This document shows positions 1 through 16,924 of a DNA stretch of 24,070 bases, piece by piece. Numbering within the stretch: position 1 is the first letter of the stretch; each line of letters begins with the position of its first letter. The stretch lies in contig JBBSJT010000023.1 in the NCBI GenBank assembly GCA_038257035.1, positions 1 through 24,070 on the forward strand, read 5' to 3'. Under the pieces are notes generated by a model that was given only the letters and a program-made list of their open reading frames with translations, made no database searches and was not told the origin of the DNA. Position numbers and translations under genes: made by a program. This DNA is from Chlamydiia bacterium. Its GTDB lineage: Bacteria; Chlamydiota; Chlamydiia; Chlamydiales; Parachlamydiaceae.

Positions 1-160
1 AGGCTGAAGGCCTGGTTTTTAATAGCCTAGGGCATCGCCCTAGGAATGATATTGTATAAAATGCAGGCTGTAGGCCTGCTTTATAATTATCCTAAAATAC
101 TTTGTTTAAGCAACTTACTCCTTAGCTTAATGCGCATGCGCATGCGCATCCGCGACTAGC
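1..160. repeat. Partial copy of the REP-containing MITE-like element also found at 23760-24022 (inverted), truncated by the window start
   Basis: Bases 1-143 are the reverse complement of 23755-23897 with one mismatch (position 55). Internal hairpins AGGC-TGAAG-GCCT and CCTAGGGC-ATC-GCCCTAGG. Ends in GCGCAT hexamers followed by CCGCGACT. Confidence 0.93.
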
Positions 161-166
161 GAAAAG

Positions 167-1258
167 TTAGAATTCGTTGGAAGATATTAACTCCCTCTTC
201 AGTATATCATGCATGCTCTTTGTAAAAGCTTCAAAACTTTCTAAACAGTTGATGTTTAATGCCACTTTATATTTATTCCTATTTTCAAAATAGGTTAATT
301 CAAACGAATTTTTAAATCGAATATTTTTTTCTATAAGAAATTTTAAAAACTTGAATCCTTGAAATTGGGAAGGGAGATAATGACCGCTTTCAAACGCAAC
401 GCTGTGAATAAGCCCATCTTCTACATTCAAAAGGCCTGCACATAAAACAGGTTTTCCAAGGCTCAAACTGTTATGCCAAACTCCCGTCGATACTGTTTCA
501 AGATACAATTGTTCTTCTAAATTTAAAATAAAAATATTTCTTGAGTTTTTAGGGGTCGTCACAAGCTCTTTTGTTTCATTGTTAATAAGGTAGCCACTTT
601 CAAATTCTATAAGGCACTTATTAAGCTGTTCTTCTGAATAATAACTGACAGCAGGTGTCGCTACTGAAATGGGCTGCTCTTCAAGCCACAAGAAAAAACT
701 TTGATAACTTTGATTTACAGGTTTCGTGTTCAACCAAAATTGATAGTAATTTGCAAGGCGCCTATGACAAGGATCTATAGACTCAAGCCAAAACGCTCCC
801 CAATTCTCTTTCATTTTAAGGGAATAAGAAAGATCGTTTCTCATGGGTATAGAAACGAATTCCCTGTTCAAGTGTGTGGAAAAATCAAGATGATACCGTT
901 CAATTTCTTGATCAGTTGGAATTTCTAACAATTTTTTGATGTATTCACTTTTACTTTGAACATGATTTTTCAAGAGGTAAATCGTACTCTTTATTTCGCT
1001 AAATTTGCCTTGTATAGATAAAGCATTTAGATAGTCGGCAATGGATTGTAAAGAAGAGATCCTTAATATTTGAGTAGCGGATGAAGACTTATCAAGCGAG
1101 TGGTAATGTTCGACAAGCTGGTTTAAATATTCGATTTCTGTTTCATGACAAGCTAAAATTTCGCGATAATCGGTTGTTGGAATATCAACAAAGCTTACAT
1201 CGGAATAAATACTACATTTGAAGAAAATCAAAAGCGTTAGCAAAAAATAATATTTCAT
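167..1258 (-). CDS. Exported protein with IQM-like core domain (paralog of 4282..5358); last gene of the operon
   Basis: Motifs FWLESIDPCHR, FFLWLE, HNSLSLGKPVLCAG and ESGHYLP match the conserved core of plant/fungal IQM proteins (WLE.IDP.HR...FFYWLD...HSS...AG...SGHY.P). Likely start is ATG 1258, 1 nt after the upstream TAA, giving a signal-peptide-like MKYYFLLTLLIFFKCSIYS. Confidence 0.8.
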   Translation of the reverse strand: MKYYFLLTLLIFFKCSIYSDVSFVDIPTTDYREILACHETEIEYLNQLVEHYHSLDKSSSATQILRISSLQSIADYLNALSIQGKFSEIKSTIYLLKNHVQSKSEYIKKLLEIPTDQEIERYHLDFSTHLNREFVSIPMRNDLSYSLKMKENWGAFWLESIDPCHRRLANYYQFWLNTKPVNQSYQSFFLWLEEQPISVATPAVSYYSEEQLNKCLIEFESGYLINNETKELVTTPKNSRNIFILNLEEQLYLETVSTGVWHNSLSLGKPVLCAGLLNVEDGLIHSVAFESGHYLPSQFQGFKFLKFLIEKNIRFKNSFELTYFENRNKYKVALNINCLESFEAFTKSMHDILKRELISSNEF

Positions 1259-1259
1259 A

Positions 1260-2051
1260 TTAAAATACCCAATTAGGGTTAAGGCCTGCATAATAGCCTA
1301 TGGATTCCATTTTTTGATTAAAACTTAAAAAATTAAATCCTGATTGTCCATCCAGATACTCAATCGATTGGTTAGAGGCATGGATTGTTATAGGATAATG
1401 AATATGTGATGCTTTAGAGCCATTGAATCGATTTGCGGGGCCGTGGGCAATAAGTTTAAACAAGTGACTAGGTTTTGTCGCATTTTTAAAAACAAGCTTT
1501 TGAAAAAAAAGATTCAAATCTTTTATTATTTCAAGTTCATTTTCAGTTAACTCACCATATTCTAAATTTACTATATTTTTCTGAATTGTTTTTTTTTGAT
1601 AAATAGCAATTAGATCAATGTCTGAAATGATGTAGTGACCATTTTCAGTACATGAAACTAAAATTTGTTCATCAGTATCAAGGATATTTTCAACAAGACA
1701 CTCTTTGCCAGATCTTATGATGCCATGGTAGTTTTTATTTCCGATCTGAAATTTTAATGGCTTTACTTGAAAATCAGGATCTTTTTCAAGAAAGCCATTA
1801 GCGATTCCTGCCCTTAGGGTTCTTTTTCTGATGCTAAAATCTTTGCTCTGTACATCATCTCGAACAAAGTGTGCAAAAGAGCTTGGGTTGATTGGATTTG
1901 ATAAAATAAAAAGATCATACTTATTGGCAATGAAGCTAAAGGCTTCATTGACCAATTCTTTGCCAATTTCTATTTGTTTCTTTTGCCAGTTTAAAAAACA
2001 CTCAAATAACATTTCATTTGAGAGTTGGTTGACTTTATCATCAAGAAGCAT
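1260..2051 (-). CDS. Compact class II nucleotidyl cyclase-like protein (anthrax EF / CyaA / ExoY catalytic core)
   Basis: [27 protein letters not shown] aligns without gaps to EF [37 protein letters not shown] matches the T-A-D-x-D-L-F-A metal motif, [15 protein letters not shown] matches CyaA GVITDFELEVRNALN, and LIAHG matches VVQHG. Likely start ATG 2051 overlaps the upstream stop (ATGCTTCTTGA); 263 aa. Confidence 0.75.
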   Translation of the reverse strand: [263 protein letters not shown]

Positions 2052-2652
2052 TCGTTGAACTTTTGTTAACAAGTATTTTACGTTCTTCCAGAAAATTATA
2101 AATGGATTCTTTATCCGTTTTTTCTTCCAAAAGAACAGCTTGATATAAGAAATGACTTCCCATTTGTGGCACACGCCCTGTTTCTGACATCAGTTCGTGT
2201 TTAACTTCCAGTATTAAATCTCGATTATTTAAATTTAATTTAGATTTTAATGATTCCATAAGGGCGCGATTCTTGTCAAAATCGGGCTTTGAAAGGCACC
2301 AAATATCTAACTTCCACATTCCACCCAAATCTTTGCAATTAAGCTTTAATCCCAAATAAATTCCTCGGGGCATTTTAGGTTTATAGTCCCCTTGAAAATT
2401 AATTATCTGAGCTTCGATAAAGCCTTCATCTTTTGCTATATGGTTGCAAAGATTGCATAAAACTTCTGTAGCATTAAACCCATCCTTTAAAACGATCTGC
2501 ATGTCAATGTCATTCCATGTCATAAGATCGAGGGCATAACTTCCCGTATAATAGAGATCTCCTGAGACCTCTATCATCGATTCAATTTTTTTAGCCTTTA
2601 AAAGCTTGGTCGCGTTGTTTCTTATTGAAAATGCGGTTTCTTGGATTGTCAT
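2041..2652 (-). CDS. Pol-beta superfamily nucleotidyltransferase
   Basis: TGSYALDLMTWNDID (GS...DxD) plus a third acidic residue in WKLDIW. ATGA overlap with the radical SAM stop codon. Confidence 0.8.
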   Translation of the reverse strand: MTIQETAFSIRNNATKLLKAKKIESMIEVSGDLYYTGSYALDLMTWNDIDMQIVLKDGFNATEVLCNLCNHIAKDEGFIEAQIINFQGDYKPKMPRGIYLGLKLNCKDLGGMWKLDIWCLSKPDFDKNRALMESLKSKLNLNNRDLILEVKHELMSETGRVPQMGSHFLYQAVLLEEKTDKESIYNFLEERKILVNKSSTNAS

Positions 2653-4301
2653 ACTTGTCCTGCCAATTGTAGCTGATTCACTTCTCGCTGATCCATTTCT
2701 GGTCGATTCATTTTCTCTTGATTCATTTCTTGAATTATTTTAAAAGCTGATGGCTTCATAAACATTAACTTATCTGTTAATCTTTTCTGTATGGCCTCAC
2801 CCGTTTGATGTTCAACCTGATCAATTGAATCGTACTGCTTTAATTCAGTATTTATATTGTAGAATTCTAAAGCTTCTTGAATTTGAGTTTGATCAAGATC
2901 ATAGTGACCTAATTTGATTAATTCAAGTAAATCCCTCCATTCAACGCTATCAAATTCTCGTTTTTTATACTGATCAATAATAGTATAAGAAGCTTCATGA
3001 TAAAGCTTCATGGCCAATTCCTTACTGCCTGAAATAATGTCTTTTAAACATTGAGGAAGCTTTTCAAATTCTTCAATTACCACTTTACCAGCTTTTAAAT
3101 AATCTTGAAGAACTCTGATTGCATAGTACAATCTGGTTTTTTCTTCTTCAAATATGACTGTGCCGGAATAGTCGCGAAGACTAATGGACTTAAGTCGCAA
3201 AACTGATCTTGGGGAAACTTCTCCAACAACTTCTTCGCGGTATTTACACCCGTTTTCAATATAAGAAAGAGTAATTGGATCTCTAAAAGTTTGGTTTAAA
3301 ACTGTAGTAAACTCATCTTCGTAAATGTTGCATTGGTTGTCATTGACTTGATTTTGCCACAAGCAAATATTGCCATTATAATTTAATGACCAGTCTAGCC
3401 CCTTATCCCCGTTGGTGTTATAAAGCACAGCTGAGTTATTGTCCTCAGATTCTTCCAAGTCTCTTTCAAAGATCTTTATTGTCTCTGTTAGATTTTGTTT
3501 TTCATGAAGATTGGGTCTTAAATCAGATCCAAAAATTTTGGAAATTCCTGTAATAAATTCATAACCTGAAGCTAATTTAACATAGATTTTTTTAGGGATA
3601 ACTTTTATGACATCTTCATCATCGGATGCTCTTTTTGAACTTGTAACATTTAACGTATGGCCTTGGAAAAACTCCATCACTTTTGGAAACATCGGATCAT
3701 TTTCAAAACCGTGAATTTGAAATTTTAAGTAAGGATGGTTTGCATATTTGCTTTCAAAAATTTGAATCAGATTAACTGCCGGATTTGTACCAAGTTTTAT
3801 AGCATGGCCTGCACTAACACTGACTCTGACTGTAACTTTACAAGGTATGTTTCTTGCCTTAATTGCATTATCAATCTCTTCTAAATAGCGTTCTGCTGCT
3901 TGTTTATTTAGTGCCCAGTTACCACTTGTCACTAAAACAATTCGATTTGTTTCCACTTCTGCAATCGTTCTAAGTACGGCACGTTTTTGAGTGAGTGGCT
4001 CACCACCCCCTGAAATTAAAATATAGCCTAAATTTGCTTGGTTGCAAAAATTTACAAATTTATCTATCCCCTCTTCACTGAACTGATCAGCAACGGTGAT
4101 TTCATTTCGGGCAGGTGCTGATTTGAAAAAACAAAATGGACATCCAACACCGCAAAATCTTGTGAAAAATACACACATAAAGGATTTGCCGGCATATTCA
4201 TTGGTATCGTAGTGAACCAAATTAAATTTAAGCATCAATCGACGGTAATAATCCGGATTACTAAAGGGATTTGCTATTAAACTATTTAGCGCTTGTTTCA
4301 T
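2649..4301 (-). CDS. Radical SAM protein with long uncharacterised C-terminal region
   Basis: CGVGCPFC (CxxxCxxC), SGGGEPL and LVTSGNWA motifs. 550 aa, with no complete Cys-rich SPASM motif. Confidence 0.9.
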   Translation of the reverse strand: MKQALNSLIANPFSNPDYYRRLMLKFNLVHYDTNEYAGKSFMCVFFTRFCGVGCPFCFFKSAPARNEITVADQFSEEGIDKFVNFCNQANLGYILISGGGEPLTQKRAVLRTIAEVETNRIVLVTSGNWALNKQAAERYLEEIDNAIKARNIPCKVTVRVSVSAGHAIKLGTNPAVNLIQIFESKYANHPYLKFQIHGFENDPMFPKVMEFFQGHTLNVTSSKRASDDEDVIKVIPKKIYVKLASGYEFITGISKIFGSDLRPNLHEKQNLTETIKIFERDLEESEDNNSAVLYNTNGDKGLDWSLNYNGNICLWQNQVNDNQCNIYEDEFTTVLNQTFRDPITLSYIENGCKYREEVVGEVSPRSVLRLKSISLRDYSGTVIFEEEKTRLYYAIRVLQDYLKAGKVVIEEFEKLPQCLKDIISGSKELAMKLYHEASYTIIDQYKKREFDSVEWRDLLELIKLGHYDLDQTQIQEALEFYNINTELKQYDSIDQVEHQTGEAIQKRLTDKLMFMKPSAFKIIQEMNQEKMNRPEMDQREVNQLQLAGQV

Positions 4302-5358
4302 GACATCCCTTATGGTTGGTTGTGCAGCTTGAATTAAGAATATTTTTAAATTGTTCTAAAGTTGGAAGATTCTTAGCGTTAATTACTGATTTATATTTGT
4401 TGCGATCAAAGAAGAAAATAATTTCAAGATCGGTAGGAAATAGTGCCCCTTTTTCTTCAAAAATTTCAAGAATTTGGTATCCTATTTCAACTGTTGGTAA
4501 ATAGTGACCGCTTTCAAGTGCAAGAGAAGTTAGAATACCTTCTTTAATTTGCACAAGTCCCGCTCCCAATACAGGTTTTCCGCATGTGAAGCTCGAATGA
4601 GAAATTCCTGACTCTTCTTCAGAAATATATATGTCACCCTTTAATGATATGGAAAATAGGTAGCGTTTAGTACAATTGTCAAAATTTGCCAAAGCCCATT
4701 CAGAATCTGATTTTTCCCAAAATAAACCGTCTTTAATGATTACTCTTTTCATTTCAAGCGCATCGTCCACTAAGTACTTCACACGTGGTATATACTTTGG
4801 AAGATGTTGATTTTCGAGCCAGAGAAAAAAATCTGGAGTTTCAGGATTGCTTTGCAATAAAATTTTCCATTGATCAAGAAAAGGTGTTAATCTTCTGTGG
4901 CAAGGGTCTAAGCTTTCATACCAAAAATCTCCCCAATATTCGCGAAGTTTCAGCGAAAAAAAACGTTGATTGTTTAAAATCACACATGTTTTTGTAGAGT
5001 CGTATAAATCGGAAATGTCATTTTGAGTGCTTGTTAAAGAAGCTTGCAAATGTAATTGATTGGAATAAATATGGAAAAGTTGGATTAAATAATTGCGTTT
5101 TTTGTTGGCTATTTCTGATATCCATATCAGATGCTTTTTCTTGTCTATAGATTCAAGGCGATTGTCGATCCAATCTTTTAAAAAATCGATTATTTTATTA
5201 AGCTTTTTAATCCGACAACTGATTGTAGGAATTTGATCTTTTGGTATTTGACTATATTTTGCAATTAGAATATTAAGTTCTTCAACATTTTCTGTTTCAT
5301 AACCTAAAACGCCTTTATAGTCATCTTCAGGCAAATCTATCCAATCTATTTCATTCAT
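4282..5358 (-). CDS. Cytoplasmic protein with IQM-like core domain; first gene of the operon
   Basis: FWYESLDPCHR, FFLWLE, VKYL, YLFSIS, HSSFTCGKPVLGAG and ESGHYLPT motifs. Alignable over the full length with 167..1258 but has no signal peptide. Overlaps the radical SAM start by 20 nt. Confidence 0.8.
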   Translation of the reverse strand: MNEIDWIDLPEDDYKGVLGYETENVEELNILIAKYSQIPKDQIPTISCRIKKLNKIIDFLKDWIDNRLESIDKKKHLIWISEIANKKRNYLIQLFHIYSNQLHLQASLTSTQNDISDLYDSTKTCVILNNQRFFSLKLREYWGDFWYESLDPCHRRLTPFLDQWKILLQSNPETPDFFLWLENQHLPKYIPRVKYLVDDALEMKRVIIKDGLFWEKSDSEWALANFDNCTKRYLFSISLKGDIYISEEESGISHSSFTCGKPVLGAGLVQIKEGILTSLALESGHYLPTVEIGYQILEIFEEKGALFPTDLEIIFFFDRNKYKSVINAKNLPTLEQFKNILNSSCTTNHKGCHETSAK

Positions 5359-5685
5359 TTTTTTATACCTTTTTTGTTAAAAACAATTGAAAACCTGTTT
5401 ACACTTAGTTTTCAGTGGTTAACGCTTAAAAATCTTTATAAAACTAGTAATATAAATATTTCGGGACAAAAACTCAAATAAAAAAAACTTATATCTAGAA
5501 AAAGTAGAACTTATATCTTATGGGTTATTCAGAGAGTGTATACAAAAGTTCTACGTCAATCTAAAAAACTTAACCTCAATAATTTATTAACAATAACTTT
5601 TATGATTGTTTTCAAAATATACACGCCACCTAGCGTCCAGCATAAACCTATAAAAAAATCAGAAAAGTAATAACAGAGGTGCTAA

Positions 5686-12242: not shown

Positions 12243-14411
12243 ATGAATCTTGAATTTAATGATGGAAATATTATTCAGCAAATTTCAACTGCACTGAATA
12301 ATGAAAAAAAAGAGACTTCGAATAACAATCAATTTTATCATGATGTTTTATCAGTCTTATTAAGTAAACTTAATTCTGATGATGTCGCAAGCTTAGCAAT
12401 GACAAATAAGTCTTTATTAAAAAATTGCAGTACATTTTCCTTCAACTCTAATTTAAAAAAACCATCCACTCCCATCCAAATCGAGCAACACAAAAAAGGA
12501 TTTCTTAATAAACTTAAAACTAGTGCAGTCTCTTTATTCAATGAGCCTAAAAAAATGCGCCCAAGCGAGGTTTTTCCCGATTCCAGACCTTTTACTCGCT
12601 GGTGGTGGTTGAATGGACCCTTTACTAAAGTCGATATAAAAGCTCAGCTTATATGGATGAAAAAACAAGGTTTTGGTGGGGTAGAATTAGCTTGGCTATA
12701 TCCAAGTTGGGATGATCGAAAAGATTCGCTTGAATGCAAAAGAATGGATTGGTTAAGCGAAGATTTTAAGAAGACTATTACATACACAAAAAAATGTGCC
12801 GAAAAACTAGGCCTTGGCTGCGATTTCACACTTGGAAGTGCTTGGCCATTTGGAGGTTCATTTCTTGAGGCCGAAGATTGTTCTCAAACTTTTACAGGTC
12901 CATCTCTTCAGGCAATTGAGGGCTCATGGGAATCGCCAAAACATACACCCGTTCTTAATCACCTTTCAAAAAAAGCTCTTCAAAATTATGTAGATCATAT
13001 GCGGAATGCATTTGAGCCGGCTTTAAAAGGGCGACCCTCTTCTCTTTTTTGCGATTCACTCGAAATTTCAAATGATACAGTATGGAATGAAGACCTTTGG
13101 AAAAAATTTGAAGATCGCTTTGGTTATTGTTTAAGAAATCATTTAAACGAATTGGAAACCAACCCTCATATTCGTTATGATTCAAGAAAAATTTTATCAG
13201 AAGCCATTCTTAAAAATTTCTATGAACCTTTTACAGCTTTAAGTAACCAAATGGGGGCAAAATCAAGAGTTCAATGTCATGGGGCACCAACTGACCTTCT
13301 TTCAGCTTATGCTTTTGCTGATGTGCCTGAATCTGAATCTCTCCTTTTTGATCCCTGGTTTTCTAGAATACCGGCATCAGCAACTTGTCTTAGTGGCCGA
13401 TCGGTCACAAGCTGTGAAACATTCACATGTATTTATGGTTTCCGTCGAAAAACAAATGGAAAGGAACAGATTTTAGATTTAAAACTTCTCTATGATGCTG
13501 TATTAGCAAACGGGGTCAATCAGATTGTTTGGCATGGGATGCCCTATAACCCAATCAACGATCCAATTAATAAATTTTTTGCCTCTGTGCATGTCGGACC
13601 GGATGCTAATTTTGTGGATCAATTGCCTAAATTCAACCAATATATGGCAACTACATGCAATCTTATGAGATTAGGAGTTAATGCTCATCGAATGGCGGTT
13701 TATTTGCCTAATGAAGATATGATGATGCTGGGCGAGCTTCCAGATGAATATAAAAAAAGACCCGGTGCTTTATCTCATTGGGAAATGAGGTTTGTACAAC
13801 CAAAAAAAGAGACGACAGGCTATTTCCCTGTATGGCTTTCCGGTGACATGCTTTCAAAAGTTAAAATTGTCGACGGGAATCTTTGTTGTGGCGATATGAA
13901 CGTTCCCTATTTGTATATCGATGTCGAATGGTTAGATATCGATGCCGTTTCAGAACTTCTTCGGTTGGTAAAAGAAGGCGGAAAAATTATCTTAAATAAC
14001 AAGCCAAAGCAACCGGGCTTTATTCCCCACGACAATTACGAAGTTCTTCTTAAAGATCTTATGGATCACAAAAACACTTTAAAAAACTTAAAAGAAGCTG
14101 ATGTAACGCCCCTTTTACAAGGTAAAAATCTACCTAACTACTGGGCACGGGAATATAAAGGAGAATTGTACCTATTCCTTGCACATCCAAGTACAAAAGA
14201 TGTAAAATACCCTATGCGTTATTGTCAATTCCAGGAATCTAAGAATGAAAAGAGAAATATAACAATTAATCATGGTGAAAATACTATTCATTTGGATTTG
14301 GAATTTGAGGCAAATGAATCTATTATGCTAAAAATTGGTACTTGCGGAAAAGTGACTAAAATTGCACTTGATGCTGATTTTGAAGCTCATTTGTCCCAGC
14401 AAGACTCATAA
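12243..14411 (+). CDS. GH106 (alpha-L-rhamnosidase-like) glycoside hydrolase with F-box-like N-terminal extension
   Basis: SRPFTRWWWLNG, GFGGVE, LGSAWPFGG, FCDSLE, DVPESE, SCETFT and GVNQIVWHG are GH106 hallmarks. About 110 extra N-terminal residues include DVLSVLLSKLNSDDVASLAMTNKSL. No Sec signal peptide. Confidence 0.82.
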   Translation: MNLEFNDGNIIQQISTALNNEKKETSNNNQFYHDVLSVLLSKLNSDDVASLAMTNKSLLKNCSTFSFNSNLKKPSTPIQIEQHKKGFLNKLKTSAVSLFNEPKKMRPSEVFPDSRPFTRWWWLNGPFTKVDIKAQLIWMKKQGFGGVELAWLYPSWDDRKDSLECKRMDWLSEDFKKTITYTKKCAEKLGLGCDFTLGSAWPFGGSFLEAEDCSQTFTGPSLQAIEGSWESPKHTPVLNHLSKKALQNYVDHMRNAFEPALKGRPSSLFCDSLEISNDTVWNEDLWKKFEDRFGYCLRNHLNELETNPHIRYDSRKILSEAILKNFYEPFTALSNQMGAKSRVQCHGAPTDLLSAYAFADVPESESLLFDPWFSRIPASATCLSGRSVTSCETFTCIYGFRRKTNGKEQILDLKLLYDAVLANGVNQIVWHGMPYNPINDPINKFFASVHVGPDANFVDQLPKFNQYMATTCNLMRLGVNAHRMAVYLPNEDMMMLGELPDEYKKRPGALSHWEMRFVQPKKETTGYFPVWLSGDMLSKVKIVDGNLCCGDMNVPYLYIDVEWLDIDAVSELLRLVKEGGKIILNNKPKQPGFIPHDNYEVLLKDLMDHKNTLKNLKEADVTPLLQGKNLPNYWAREYKGELYLFLAHPSTKDVKYPMRYCQFQESKNEKRNITINHGENTIHLDLEFEANESIMLKIGTCGKVTKIALDADFEAHLSQQDS

Positions 14412-16311
14412 CGCTCTTTAAACTCATCCAATGTGCTGCAAAGCGCTATGCAATCGGGAAGAACGGTATATCTAGAAAGGGTTGGTGGCTCCAATCCATT
14501 AAGCTTATATAGAATGTAATGCAGCTCAAGCATGGTTTGAGAATTCCCCCTTACTGTCGGCATAAGTTGCACACCTTTCCAATAGAATTCTGCAATTTTA
14601 CCTTCAAATTCTGTAATGCTTTGAGGGTCCTGAAGATCCACTTTTGCATTAACAAGGTTTTTCCAATCCTTAGAAATTCCTATTTGATCAAACCAATGTG
14701 GATTAGACCTTTCAGCTATAGGAACATTCTTGTCAAAGATCGGTTTTGAATGATAGAATTGTAATGCGGGTTCATAATTACTAGCTGTTGATGCAATTGT
14801 AGTTAGCTTAAAGGATGAATTTTTATCAGAGGCAATGGATATATTGAATGAATTTATACTAGCCTTAGAAACATTTGGGTTTTCATATTTATTATCTAAC
14901 TTTTCAATTGCAAATTTTTTAAAAATCGCATAACGCGTTAATATGGGTGTTTGACCTATGCCCATTCTCCAAGGGTTTTCTCTGTGGAGTTGATCATTGT
15001 TAAATAGGCAGATTCCAAAGTTTTTGAGGGATCGAGTTTTAATTCTTCTATAACTTTATTAACAAGCTGAAGATGTTTTTCACCGTATCCTTGTTGTTGT
15101 TGCTCATAATTCTCATAATTTTTTCCATAAGCTTGAAACACCTCTTGTTGGTGCATTGGATTAGGAAAGCGTGAAATTAATTTACCGGCGGCAGAATTGA
15201 ATTTATTGGCTTCGTTTAATAATGTGTCGCTAATCAATCCATTACTTTTAAGTAAAAGGGTCAGCTCATTAACTTCGTTTTTATTCGAATTTAAAAAATA
15301 TTCTGTAAGTTTATTTGGCTTTAACTCTTCAGGAATATTTTTGAACTCAGATAATGCAAACTCTTTCCATTTAGGGTTTATGTTTTTCATTAAACTTAAA
15401 TTTCCTTGGGAATGGGCTTGTTTGCTAAAATCAGAAATTTGGCTCTCGGTCAATTTTTGATCCATAATAGGCAAAATATCTTCTAAAAATTTCTCTAAGT
15501 TTGCATTTACACATTTTTTTATAAGTTCGTTTTTGCCATTACGATCCGAAAATTTTACAATCAATCCCACAATGTTTAAATCTTGTTCTTCGATGGCTCG
15601 CGCCATTACTTTTTCTATATTAGGAAGCTTCCCATCATTAATTTCTATTAGCGATTCAGCTAAATCTACATTTAAAGCCGTTATTGATTTCTCAATGATA
15701 TCTTCTAGATCTTTACCCGTTGTTTTAGTTAGTTTAACCAATTTGCAAATATTCTCATGCATATCATGGGGTACATTAATAAAACTTGAGACCAAACCCA
15801 CTCCCGCTTGAAGAACAGTATTTGCTTGTTGTTCATTTAATTCATATATATTAAAGCGCGGATTACTTAATAGAGCAAGAATGGCGTTGTCATCTACTAA
15901 AAAGCGTGATAGTAAGTGTTCCATAATAAGATTTGCCATTTGGGGGTTATTATCCATAACATCCAAAACAGTATTCACATAAATTTCAATAGCAATCATC
16001 TGATCTTTCACATCTTCTTTTCCCTTATTGCTTCTATAAATATTTCTTGCAAATGTCTGTAAAGAAGCATTCACTTCATCATTGCTTCCATTCAACATCC
16101 CCTGATTTATATTCTCATGAAAAATGCCCACCTCTTTCCCTAAGTCAAAAGGTGCTGTTTTATGTATTTCTGTTTGCACAATCTGCAATCTTGTTTTTTC
16201 TTTAGGAGTAAATGAAAATTCTTTTATTGCGTTTTTAATATTATCAATTTTTTTATTGACGCTATTAAAAACATTTATTTGAAAGCTTCTGCCTACTGAT
16301 GCCGGTTCCAT
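14387..16311 (-). pseudogene. Frameshifted paralog of the AvrB-type Fido protein at 17060..18991 (ORF fragments 14956..16311 and 14387..14965)
   Basis: The two fragments align colinearly to the N- and C-terminal parts of the intact paralog (LISRFPNP, QQQQGYG; TPIL.RY, EFYWKGVQLMPT.RGNSQ, LPDCIALCSTL). The frame break is at about 15002-15004. Confidence 0.82.
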
Positions 16312-16324
16312 AAACCCTCTTTAG

Positions 16325-16924
16325 CTATTTCTTTGTTTTAAGGTAATCTAATGCAGCTATTGCCTGTTCTTTGATGGCTTCATTTTCCTTTGCAGCTTCA
16401 AGAAACTCTTCAAGTTCTACAAAATCTTGAATATTTTCATAACAGCGAATGAGCCCGATGTATGGGGTAAAATCGTCAGGGTCTGACACTTTTATGGCGG
16501 TTTTAAAACAATTAATTGCTTTATACTGATCAAGATTTTTTTCATACGCTAAACCAAGACCAATCCAGAACGCGGGAACATACGGGTTTATGGTAGTTAA
16601 GAAAAGAAAAGTAGTGATTGCTTTGTCAAGATAACAATTATGATAAAAAGATGTCGCTATTTCATAAAAAAGAAATTGAACATCCGAAGAAAAATTACCA
16701 TGAATAGAATCTGTTTTTGAAAAAAACTCCGATTCGATCTCATCTTTGATGATTTCCAACTCTTCTGAAAACTGAAAATCTTCTATAGGTATGGGTTTAA
16801 TGTTAGGATCGCTCGAATAATAGCCAACCTTTGAATTTTTAAGTATTTCTTCCGCTAGAAGAAGGTACCCTTGCTCAAAGGATTTAATATCAATTTTTTC
16901 GTTTTTAATATGCATTAAAAACAC
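16325..16924 (-). CDS. SycD/LcrH-like TPR protein (class II T3SS chaperone-like)
   Basis: FYEIATSFYHNCYLDKAITTFLFLTTINPYVPAFWIGLGLAY...AINCF...PYIGLIRCY gives the typical tandem-TPR pattern; acidic, about 199 aa. Confidence 0.75.
   Translation of the reverse strand: MFLMHIKNEKIDIKSFEQGYLLLAEEILKNSKVGYYSSDPNIKPIPIEDFQFSEELEIIKDEIESEFFSKTDSIHGNFSSDVQFLFYEIATSFYHNCYLDKAITTFLFLTTINPYVPAFWIGLGLAYEKNLDQYKAINCFKTAIKVSDPDDFTPYIGLIRCYENIQDFVELEEFLEAAKENEAIKEQAIAALDYLKTKK

What the first reader, a model, noticed from the sequence alone, without database searches (positions are those of the whole stretch)
167..5358. Undescribed five-gene operon: IQM-core / radical SAM / nucleotidyltransferase / class II nucleotidyl cyclase / exported IQM-core
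Seen: five same-strand genes with junctions of 20-nt overlap, ATGA overlap, 11-nt overlap and a 1-nt gap, so they are translationally coupled. The two end genes are paralogs. Known: radical SAM enzymes can remodel nucleotides (e.g. viperins), Pol-beta NTases transfer NMP, and EF/CyaA/ExoY enzymes make cyclic NMPs. I know of no described system combining these three with IQM-core proteins. Inference: a pathway that makes a modified or cyclic nucleotide (signal or toxin) for antiviral defence or host manipulation, with the IQM-core pair as sensor, hydrolase or effector.
Basis: partly seen in the sequence, partly recalled or inferred. Interest (0 to 1): 0.92.

Follow-up and report, generated by a model that had tools for sequence, protein, structure and literature searches.

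The report
Chlamydial radical-SAM, cyclase and IQM-core gene cluster
An environmental chlamydia-like bacterium carries a conserved, undescribed gene cluster that joins a new radical SAM enzyme, a small nucleotidyltransferase, a stripped-down relative of toxin-type adenylate cyclases, two relatives of the plant IQM protein core and an exporter, most likely to make and export a modified nucleotide.

Summary
Five overlapping minus-strand genes lie at 5358..167, and the end genes are paralogs (30% identity, E 4e-53).

- **Radical SAM:** CX3CX2C motif, with weak Pfam hits.
- **Pol-beta nucleotidyltransferase:** GS...DxD...D motif only.
- **IQM core:** the family profile hits a plant calmodulin-binding protein at E 6e-38.

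The cluster is longer than reported. In relatives the order is IQMa, rSAM, NTase, cyclase, IQMb, secreted EEP hydrolase, three ABC-2 exporter genes and sometimes a secreted Ppx/GppA phosphatase. In this genome the exporter genes sit on contig C124, which probably adjoins the window.

Distribution is patchy: the rSAM occurs in 7 of 400 genomes of the phylum and in 0 of 45 others of the same family. Full-length IQM-like genes occur in 8 of those 400, seven of them beside the rSAM.

Elsewhere this rSAM family sits with NUDIX, nucleotide kinases and phosphatases. I read the cluster as synthesis and export of a modified nucleotide. Neither defence nor host manipulation is shown. PADLOC and the literature searches found no description.

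The parts
4282..5358 (-). g1, IQMa: cytoplasmic IQM-core protein (358 aa). It has an N-terminal helical bundle (residues ~3-97), a middle region with the DPCHR and FFLWLE motifs, and a C-terminal ~120-aa core with H-S-S, GKPVLGAG and ESGHYLP.
2649..4301 (-). g2: radical SAM enzyme of an unnamed ~520-aa family (550 aa here). It has the CX3CX2C motif at C50/C54/C57 and a long conserved C-terminal part without further invariant cysteines.
   Evidence: Pfam Radical_SAM scores 28.0 bits (cut-off 29.5) and Fer4_12 scores 27.2 (cut-off 22). The closest solved structure is YydG at E 7e-7, over the core only.
2041..2652 (-). g3: small Pol-beta-type nucleotidyltransferase (203 aa).
   Evidence: Invariant G37-S38 ... 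D48-x-D50 ... D116 in 10 of 10 aligned members. Pfam NTP_transf_2 is below the cut-off: 15.3 bits against 21, weak in 6 of 10 members. No PDB sequence hit.
1260..2051 (-). g4: minimal class II (EF/CyaA/ExoY-type) nucleotidyl cyclase homologue (263 aa). It has no signal peptide and no translocation or activator-binding extension.
167..1291 (-). g5, IQMb: paralog of g1 with a signal-peptide-like N-terminus (start at 1291 or, with a 1-nt gap after g4, at 1258).
5359..5685 (-). 327-bp AT-rich upstream region between a DUF368-type gene and g1; presumed promoter region.
   Evidence: One promoter-like site lies at 5477..5449, but such sites are no more frequent than in shuffles. No conserved small ORF. 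No Rfam match.
1..166 (.). Repeat-rich tail after g5, with REP-like palindromes and a terminator-like hairpin at 79..63. Bases 1-17 are identical, in reverse complement, to the first 17 bases of contig C124. C124 carries the ABC ATPase, two ABC-2 permeases and a Ppx/GppA-like gene.

Best explanation
This is a horizontally spread, tightly packed gene cluster of environmental chlamydiae. I read it as building a modified nucleotide in the cytoplasm, pumping it out, and finishing or handling it outside the cytoplasmic membrane.

Proposed roles:
- Cytoplasmic enzymes: the radical SAM enzyme g2 (radical chemistry on a nucleotide), the Pol-beta nucleotidyltransferase g3 (NMP transfer, possibly a protecting group), the compact class II cyclase g4 (NTP to cyclic NMP or a related pyrophosphate-releasing step, probably without a eukaryotic activator) and IQMa g1 (an enzyme of unknown chemistry).
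- Export: an ABC-2 exporter encoded just downstream.
- Extracytoplasmic enzymes, all with signal-like N-termini: IQMb g5, an EEP-family phosphodiesterase/phosphatase and a Ppx/GppA-family phosphatase. They would trim phosphate or nucleotidyl groups, following the prodrug logic known from antibiotic producers.

What is shown: gene order, conservation, family and fold assignments, the split into proteins with and without signal-like N-termini, and patchy distribution.

What is inferred: the substrate class, the order of steps, export of a small molecule and its target (host cell or competitors).
For: 1. Conserved order. IQMa, rSAM, NTase, cyclase, IQMb, EEP, ABC ATPase and two ABC-2 permeases appear in this order in L055/L007, L058/L010, L057 (partial) and the divergent L061. 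In G000 the ABC genes (81% identical permease) and a Ppx/GppA gene lie on C124, whose end overlaps the window's end by 17 bases. L007 also has Ppx/GppA after the permeases.
2. Tight co-occurrence. In 400 scored genomes of the phylum, the rSAM is in 7 and full-length IQM-like genes are in 8. Seven of those 8 are the rSAM genomes, always adjacent. A Bacteroidetes locus (L031) also joins rSAM, IQM-like and cyclase-like genes in another arrangement.
3. Nucleotide context of the rSAM family:
   - 33 of the 120 listed homologues are fused to a histidine phosphatase (my count).
   - Within the flanks of 48 loci, NUDIX occurs in 13, a thymidylate-kinase-like gene in 6, adenylate kinase in 4, and EEP, RmlD-like and aldo-keto reductase genes also recur.
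5. Signal-like N-termini occur on IQMb, EEP and Ppx/GppA but not on g1-g4.
6. There is no conserved small ORF for a peptide precursor.
Against: - No chemistry was measured, and no substrate is known for any of the five proteins.
- The only solved relative of the rSAM by sequence is the peptide epimerase YydG, and ABC exporters also serve peptides.
- The link between contigs C23 and C124 rests on 17 identical bases within repeats.
- A terminator-like hairpin follows g5, so the exporter may be a separate transcript in this genome.
- EEP was not found in G000, and IQMb and EEP are missing in L011. The outside steps are therefore dispensable or variable.
- Signal peptides were judged by eye.
- ABC-2 transporters can also carry lipids or glycans.
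- The IQM core occurs in giant secreted polymorphic-toxin-like proteins. That fits a protein toxin or effector role as well as a small-molecule enzyme.
Confidence: 0.45

Rival explanations
1. Anti-phage or anti-invader defence system of the viperin, Pycsar or CBASS type. The rSAM would make a chain-terminating nucleotide, or the cyclase and NTase would make a signal, and the IQM-core proteins would act as effectors.
For: - Patchy, transfer-like distribution: 7 of 400 genomes of the phylum and 0 of 45 others of the same family. A same-genus genome keeps the flanking synteny but lacks the cluster.
- Weak similarity of the rSAM to viperins: NCBIfam viperin E 1.4e-4 and PADLOC pVip E 7.7e-4.
- In other phyla the rSAM sits beside STAND NB-ARC-TPR-LuxR proteins, nucleotide kinases and serine recombinases.
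Against: - No PADLOC model matches g1, g3, g4 or g5.
- The viperin model scores 21 bits against a cut-off of 180.
- A dedicated exporter and secreted hydrolases are not features of known nucleotide-based defence systems (recalled).
- No sensor gene lies in the chlamydial cluster.
- No relatives were found in viral contigs with two pattern scans; these scans have limited sensitivity.
Confidence: 0.15
2. Set of host-directed protein effectors of an intracellular bacterium. The cyclase would be an ExoY-like toxin and the IQM proteins membrane-targeted effectors delivered to the eukaryotic host. The rSAM and NTase would be accessory or unrelated.
For: - All characterised class II cyclases are host-activated toxins (recalled).
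- The IQM core is repeated in giant proteins that carry hemagglutinin repeats, a WXG100-like domain plus glutamine deamidase, or a T9SS sorting domain.
- The core occurs in 74 of 400 chlamydial genomes.
- The lineages that carry the rSAM-IQM pair are labelled Chlamydiae, Legionellaceae and Paracaedibacteraceae.
Against: - g4 lacks about 130 residues of the EF 303-645 span and shows no secretion or translocation module.
- g1 has no signal peptide.
- Strict adjacency and overlap with a cytoplasmic Fe-S enzyme and an NTase, over 34-79% sequence divergence, argue for one pathway.
Confidence: 0.15
3. Peptide or protein modification system. The rSAM would modify a ribosomal peptide or the IQM proteins themselves, in the manner of an activase, and the ABC transporter would export the product.
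For: - The nearest solved sequence relative is the peptide epimerase YydG (E 7e-7).
- The next NCBIfam hits are the PflA and NrdG activases.
- An ABC exporter lies downstream.
- Peptidase_S51 genes lie near the rSAM in 16 of 48 loci.
- rSAM and full-length IQM-like genes are almost always adjacent.
Against: - No conserved small ORF lies upstream of IQMa. Four of 8 upstream regions have none of 15 aa or more, the rest are unrelated, and one region is only 93 bp long.
- No SPASM or auxiliary-cluster cysteines are invariant.
- Many family members lack any IQM-like neighbour: 38 of 48 loci.
- The recurrent neighbours are nucleotide enzymes.
Confidence: 0.1

Closest known systems
Class II (toxin-type) nucleotidyl cyclases: anthrax EF, Bordetella CyaA, Pseudomonas/Vibrio ExoY (Pfam PF03497)
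   Same: - Motif-level matches to the EF Lys346/Ser354 loop, the D491-x-D493 pair and His577.
   Different: - Only 263 aa, covering a span that takes 343 residues in EF.
- No Pfam hit for the window's protein; 11 of 19 relatives hit weakly, best E 0.0023.
- No secretion, translocation or activator-binding parts.
- It is encoded inside a cytoplasmic enzyme operon rather than as a toxin gene.
- The residue on EF H351 is Arg, and the residue on K353 is Arg.
Plant IQM (IQ-motif-containing, calmodulin-binding) proteins
   Same: They share the ~120-aa core with the H-S-S, G...AAG/GAG and S-G/R-H-Y-x-P motifs. The profile E-value is 6.4e-38, and hhalign probability is 98.3% over 116 columns.
   Different: - The bacterial proteins have no IQ motif: no Pfam IQ hit at E up to 1.
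- They carry a different N-terminal helical domain.
- They come as a pair, one cytoplasmic and one exported.
- Two abstracts call IQM plant-specific (PMC9853202 and PMC10887524, seen as listing abstracts).
- No biochemical activity of the core is known to me (recalled).
Viperin / prokaryotic viperins (pVip) with nucleotide kinases
   Same: A radical SAM enzyme whose family neighbours include nucleotide kinases and phosphohydrolases. This suggests an NTP substrate and an analogue product.
   Different: - It is not a viperin: NCBIfam NF038283 scores 21.1 bits against a cut-off of 180.
- It is twice the size, with an unrelated conserved C-terminal half.
- It is accompanied by a cyclase, an NTase, IQM-core proteins and an exporter.
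Pycsar and CBASS (cyclic-nucleotide defence systems)
   Same: A nucleotide cyclase and a Pol-beta-fold NTase lie next to candidate effector proteins.
   Different: - Pycsar cyclases are class III type (recalled), whereas this one is class II.
- g3 matches no PADLOC CD-NTase model.
- No known effector domain is present.
- An exporter and secreted hydrolases are present.
Four-helix-bundle membrane localisation domains of large clostridial toxins, MARTX effectors and PMT
   Different: - Sequence identity is 6-13%.
- The scores lie in the range where helical bundles can match by chance, according to the tool's note.
- No membrane-binding test was done.

Membership tests
Class II nucleotidyl cyclase (EF/CyaA/ExoY, PF03497) | Catalytic-core fold | tested here: met
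   [not shown]
Class II nucleotidyl cyclase (EF/CyaA/ExoY, PF03497) | Sequence match to the Pfam model above its cut-off (25 bits) | tested here: not met
   No hit for the window's protein. 11 of 19 family members hit weakly, best E 0.0023. A search of the window's own genome with PF03497 found nothing at E up to 10.
Class II nucleotidyl cyclase (EF/CyaA/ExoY, PF03497) | Catalytic residues: phosphate-binding Lys/Ser loop, metal-binding Asp-x-Asp, catalytic His (EF numbering recalled) | tested here: inconclusive
   hhalign (probability 69%, E 4.3e-5) puts K70/T78 on EF K346/S354, but Arg on H351 and K353. The SDIDL and ADYDL motifs are alike. The alignment of H203 on H577 is not significant (E 0.28).
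Class II nucleotidyl cyclase (EF/CyaA/ExoY, PF03497) | Activation by a eukaryotic cofactor (calmodulin or actin) and delivery as a toxin | not testable with these tools
   The protein is compact and lacks extra domains.
Radical SAM superfamily | CX3CX2C cluster motif and core domain | tested here: met
   C50, C54 and C57 are invariant in 20 sequences. Fer4_12 scores 27.2 bits, above the cut-off of 22. Radical_SAM scores 28.0, just under 29.5.
Viperin / pVip | Match to the viperin equivalog model | tested here: not met
   NF038283 scores 21.1 bits against a cut-off of 180. PADLOC pVip E 7.7e-4 over the cluster-binding region only.
Pol-beta nucleotidyltransferase superfamily | G-[GS] ... D-x-[DE] ... 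third carboxylate | tested here: met
   G37-S38, D48-x-D50 and D116 are invariant in 10 of 10 members. Pfam NTP_transf_2 is only 15.3 bits against a cut-off of 21.
CD-NTase (CBASS) | Match to CD-NTase models | tested here: not met
   g3 has no PADLOC hit at E up to 1.
Plant IQM family | Conserved C-terminal core domain | tested here: met
   Profile A2 hits P0348 (Dovyalis caffra 'Calmodulin-binding family protein') at E 6.4e-38. hhalign probability 98.3%, E 2.4e-14.
Plant IQM family | IQ calmodulin-binding motif | tested here: not met
   No Pfam IQ hit in g1 or g5 at E up to 1. The region before the core is a different helical domain.
4HBM membrane localisation domain | Four-helix bundle superposable on the toxin domains | tested here: inconclusive
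   [not shown]
RiPP radical SAM maturases (YydG-like, SPASM) | Cis-encoded precursor peptide and auxiliary Fe-S cysteines | tested here: not met
   No conserved small ORF in 8 upstream regions. The only invariant cysteines are C43, C50, C54 and C57.

The most novel reading that the evidence does not exclude
- The IQM core is an ancient bacterial enzyme domain. It is common in chlamydiae and in giant secreted polymorphic toxins, and plants later acquired it.
- Here it works, in an inside/outside pair, with the first activator-independent, non-toxin class II nucleotidyl cyclase and a new radical SAM family.
- Together they make and export a previously unknown kind of modified cyclic or conjugated nucleotide, which acts on the eukaryotic host or on competitors.
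- This would give the plant IQM family its first biochemical function and would open a new branch of nucleotide chemistry.
Probability: 0.2. Interest if true: 0.92.

Novelty: new variant of a known kind. Interest (0 to 1): 0.78.

Why it matters
- **Class II cyclases.** As far as I recall, they are known only as host-activated toxins. A compact homologue embedded in a cytoplasmic enzyme operon suggests an ancestral or alternative, non-toxin role for this fold.
- **IQM proteins.** The abstracts I saw call them plant-specific, and I know of no enzymatic function. Here their core turns out to be widespread in chlamydiae (74 of 400 genomes) and in giant bacterial toxins. It is also tied genetically to a radical SAM enzyme, which offers a tractable bacterial system in which to find its activity.
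- **The radical SAM family.** It is large, spans bacteria and archaea with reduced genomes, and has no name. Its recurrent nucleotide-enzyme partners make it a candidate producer of new nucleotide analogues.
- **Caveat.** All of this rests on sequence and predicted structure only.

Tried and rejected
**Sequence and family searches that gave nothing useful**
- PDB with g4, g1, and the profiles of g4 and g3: no relevant hit.
- tblastn of a g4 relative against plasmids: no match.
- PHROGs: nothing meaningful.
- Rfam: no match. tRNA scan: none.

**Regulatory signals**
- Promoter-like sites are no more frequent than in shuffles: 22 found against 22.6 expected.

**Fold of the IQM core**
- Not resolved. 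Foldseek against PDB gave no hit at E up to 0.001. Both VIA runs were filled by the N-terminal bundle.
- BFVD gave one borderline row: G8DGH9, E 1.6e-3, TM 0.25.

**Complex and expression**
- Complex prediction of rSAM with IQMa returned no verdict (score 0.00). I do not use it either way.
- Sequencing runs: one DNA holder and no RNA holder listed.

**Other searches**
- Viral contigs: no relative of the rSAM or of the IQM-like family with two pattern scans.
- The EEP gene was not found in G000 with one protein query.
- A DNA search of G000 with the region beyond the DUF368 gene in same-genus G002 found nothing, so the far insertion boundary is not defined.
- hhalign of the rSAM neighbour family F4 against the IQM family showed no relation. 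F4 shows only a weak AlaRS-N-like match (E 0.13).
- Earlier findings of the scan: nothing relevant.
- DefenseFinder and antiSMASH are not available here.


Full report
**1. Observation**

The window is a whole contig (G000:C23). One search lists five minus-strand ORFs:
- g1 5358..4282 (358 aa)
- g2 4301..2649 (550 aa)
- g3 2652..2041 (203 aa)
- g4 2174 or 2051..1260
- g5 1291 or 1258..167

g1 and g5 are paralogs: 30% identity over 337 residues, E 4e-53. g5 has an N-terminal hydrophobic segment that g1 lacks.

**2. What the five proteins are**

Library scans alone say little:
- Pfam gives sub-threshold Radical_SAM for g2 (28.0 bits against 29.5), Fer4_12 for g2 (27.2 against 22) and a weak NTP_transf_2 for g3. 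It gives nothing for g1, g4 and g5.
- NCBIfam gives only weak rSAM-core hits for g2, to YydG, PflA, NrdG and viperin at 21 bits against 180.
- PADLOC gives only a weak pVip hit for g2.

*g4, the cyclase.* An alignment of 19 relatives gave an AF2 model with pLDDT 87.9. Its 24 best Foldseek hits are all CyaA, ExoY or anthrax EF cyclase domains, with best E 2.8e-9 and the next fold at E 0.38. VIA-align gives the following:

For a residue-level check I fetched cya from pXO1.
- hhalign aligns g4 36-92 with EF 313-368 (probability 69%, E 4.3e-5). This puts invariant K70 and T78 on EF K346 and S354, but arginines on H351 and K353.
- The invariant S-D-I-D-L of g4 mirrors EF A-D-Y-D-L at 490-494.
- A non-significant alignment puts H203 on H577.
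- The functional roles of these EF residues are recalled, not tested here.

g4 is therefore a compact homologue of the toxin-type cyclases. It is 263 aa long, where the EF core needs about 340.

*g3, the NTase.* Ten aligned members keep G37-S38, D48-x-D50 and D116, the Pol-beta NTase signature. Pfam support is weak: 6 of 10 members hit, best E 0.0018.

*g2, the radical SAM enzyme.* It belongs to an unnamed family.
- 221 hits were scored among the candidates, and 33 of the 120 listed are fused to a histidine phosphatase.
- C43, C50, C54 and C57 are invariant, and there are no further invariant cysteines.
- The only solved relative by sequence is YydG (E 7e-7, core only).

*g1 and g5, the IQM-core proteins.*
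- A profile of 26 family members found 8056 proteins at E up to 1e-3 among 1.84 billion representatives.
- One of these, P0348, is a plant 'Calmodulin-binding family protein' (E 6.4e-38). Its sequence carries an IQ-type stretch and two IQM-like cores.
- hhalign gives probability 98.3% over 116 columns.
- The shared unit is a ~120-aa module with H-x-[SC], GKPVLxxG and SGHYxP.
- This module is repeated two to six times in giant proteins of 1.5-5.3 thousand residues. These carry hemagglutinin repeats, a WXG100-like head plus glutamine deamidase, or a T9SS sorting tail.
- The fold of the core itself found no PDB match and could not be tested alone.

**3. The cluster is conserved and longer than reported**

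- A scan of one genome per species with the rSAM alignment returned 48 loci.
- Five of them (L007-L011, labelled Chlamydiae or Verrucomicrobia MAGs) carry g1 to g4 in the same order. Four of these also carry g5.
- A metagenome scan with the cyclase alignment returned 10 loci.
- Where the contig is long enough, the order is IQMa, rSAM, NTase, cyclase, IQMb, EEP-family hydrolase, ABC ATPase, ABC-2 permease a and ABC-2 permease b.
- This order holds in L061 too, where the rSAM is 57% and the cyclase 34% identical and most junctions are 4-nt overlaps.
- L007 adds a Ppx/GppA-family gene after the permeases.
- L011 lacks IQMb and EEP.

In G000:
- The permease b homologue (81% identity) lies on contig C124, after an ABC ATPase and permease a, and is followed by a Ppx/GppA-family gene.
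- The first 17 bases of C124 equal the reverse complement of window bases 1-17. Both ends are full of palindromic repeats, so the contigs probably adjoin.
- An EEP gene was not found in G000.
- IQMb, EEP and Ppx/GppA all start with signal-like hydrophobic segments.

**4. Distribution**

- Among 400 scored genomes of the phylum (one more could not be scored), the rSAM occurs in 7. These include G000 but none of 45 other genomes of its own family.
- The IQM profile hits 74 of 400. Full-length family members occur in only 8: the same 7, always next to the rSAM, plus G093.
- A same-genus genome, G002, keeps the flanking genes (RecN, RNase HIII, RodZ-like, DUF368) but has neither the rSAM nor a full-length IQM-like gene.
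- The cluster is therefore an accessory, probably transferred, unit set next to housekeeping genes.

**5. Wider context of the rSAM family**

In the 48 loci the rSAM keeps changing partners, but most of them are nucleotide enzymes:

| Neighbour | Loci (of 48) |
|---|---|
| Peptidase_S51 | 16 |
| NUDIX | 13 |
| Unknown ~330-aa family F4 (weak AlaRS-N-like match, E 0.13) | 13 |
| Serine recombinase | 7 |
| Thymidylate-kinase-like | 6 |
| Second rSAM | 6 |
| STAND NB-ARC-TPR-LuxR | 5 |
| Adenylate kinase | 4 |

RmlD-like, EEP, aldo-keto reductase, B12-rSAM and RelA/SpoT genes also occur. IQM-like genes lie within the flanks in 10 of 48 loci. These are labelled Chlamydiae, Rhabdochlamydia, Legionellaceae, Paracaedibacteraceae and Bacteroidetes, and the Bacteroidetes locus also holds a cyclase-like gene.

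**6. Mechanism**

- I commit to a biosynthesis-and-export model (confidence 0.45).
- Four cytoplasmic enzymes build a modified nucleotide.
- The ABC-2 pump exports it.
- The signal-bearing IQMb, EEP and Ppx/GppA proteins trim or activate it outside the cytoplasm.
- Shown: order, conservation, folds and the inside/outside split.
- Inferred: substrate, step order and target.

Rivals:
- Defence system (0.15).
- Host-directed protein effectors (0.15).
- Peptide or protein modification (0.10). This is weakened by the lack of any conserved small ORF.

**7. Comparison and novelty**

- The cluster is not a viperin, CBASS or Pycsar system by the tests above, and it matches no PADLOC system.
- Six full-text searches found no description. 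From these I saw only listings and abstracts, plus two passages of PMC7159879 that concern other systems.
- Supplements were not consulted.
- I file it as a new variant of nucleotide-centred biosynthetic or conflict clusters. A bolder reading is kept open in the section on the most novel reading.

Noticed in passing
window 1-166 and L066 (G000:C124) 1-388: Both contig ends are packed with short GC-rich palindromes (REP-like). These include a hairpin at window 63-79, and the two ends share 17 identical terminal bases. The repeats probably broke the assembly and may have replaced the EEP gene that relatives have here.
   Followed up: partly
phylum sample, (e.g. G298:C1:702619-704878, G271:C19:37797-41349): The ~120-170-aa IQM core alone occurs in 74 of 400 chlamydial genomes, up to five copies per genome and sometimes in tandem or divergent clusters, inside open frames of 200-980 aa. 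The plant IQM core therefore has many chlamydial relatives, which bears on the long-discussed gene sharing between chlamydiae and plants.
   Followed up: partly
P0273, P0297, P0305, P0307, P0320-P0322, P0342, P0345, P0354, P0362, P0364, P0365, P0367: Giant proteins (1.5-5.3 thousand aa) carry 2-6 copies of the IQM core at spacings of roughly 200-900 residues, together with hemagglutinin repeats, a WXG100-like domain plus glutamine deamidase, or a T9SS tail. The invariant H-x-[S/C] motif of the core resembles self-cleavage motifs of some autoproteolytic domains. That resemblance is recalled and untested.
   Followed up: no
L016-L029, L036, L044, L047: In gut Bacilli and Clostridia, Patescibacteria and some Alphaproteobacteria, the same rSAM family is fused to a histidine phosphatase. 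It is flanked by an unknown ~330-aa protein with a weak AlaRS-catalytic-domain likeness and by a Peptidase_S51 protein, often near a serine recombinase. This looks like a separate uncharacterised cluster type.
   Followed up: partly
L013, L014, L015, L030, L048: A ~1130-aa LuxR-HTH, NB-ARC and TPR (STAND) protein sits directly upstream of the rSAM (on the opposite strand in L030). In L014 and L015, thymidylate-kinase-like and adenylate kinase genes follow downstream.
   Followed up: no
L009 6944-8020: In this relative the IQMa gene is split into two ORFs (220 and 136 aa), so it may be a frameshift or a decaying copy. The EEP gene also appears reduced to a 141-aa ORF.
   Followed up: no
window 21559-23637 (+): A 692-aa protein has AAA, AAA_16 and weak NACHT hits (a STAND-like ATPase). 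It lies near five ORFs with no Pfam match (14387-14965, 14956-16311, 16325-16924, 17060-19039 and 20178-21386), all on the minus strand.
   Followed up: no
P0348: The plant protein that anchors the IQM homology contains two IQM-like units in tandem and lacks part of the region before each core. It may be a fused or mis-predicted gene model.
   Followed up: no
BFVD entry G8DGH9: A viral protein of 351 aa gave a borderline full-length Foldseek row to the g1 model (E 1.6e-3, probability 0.98, but TM 0.25). Its name was not available.
   Followed up: no
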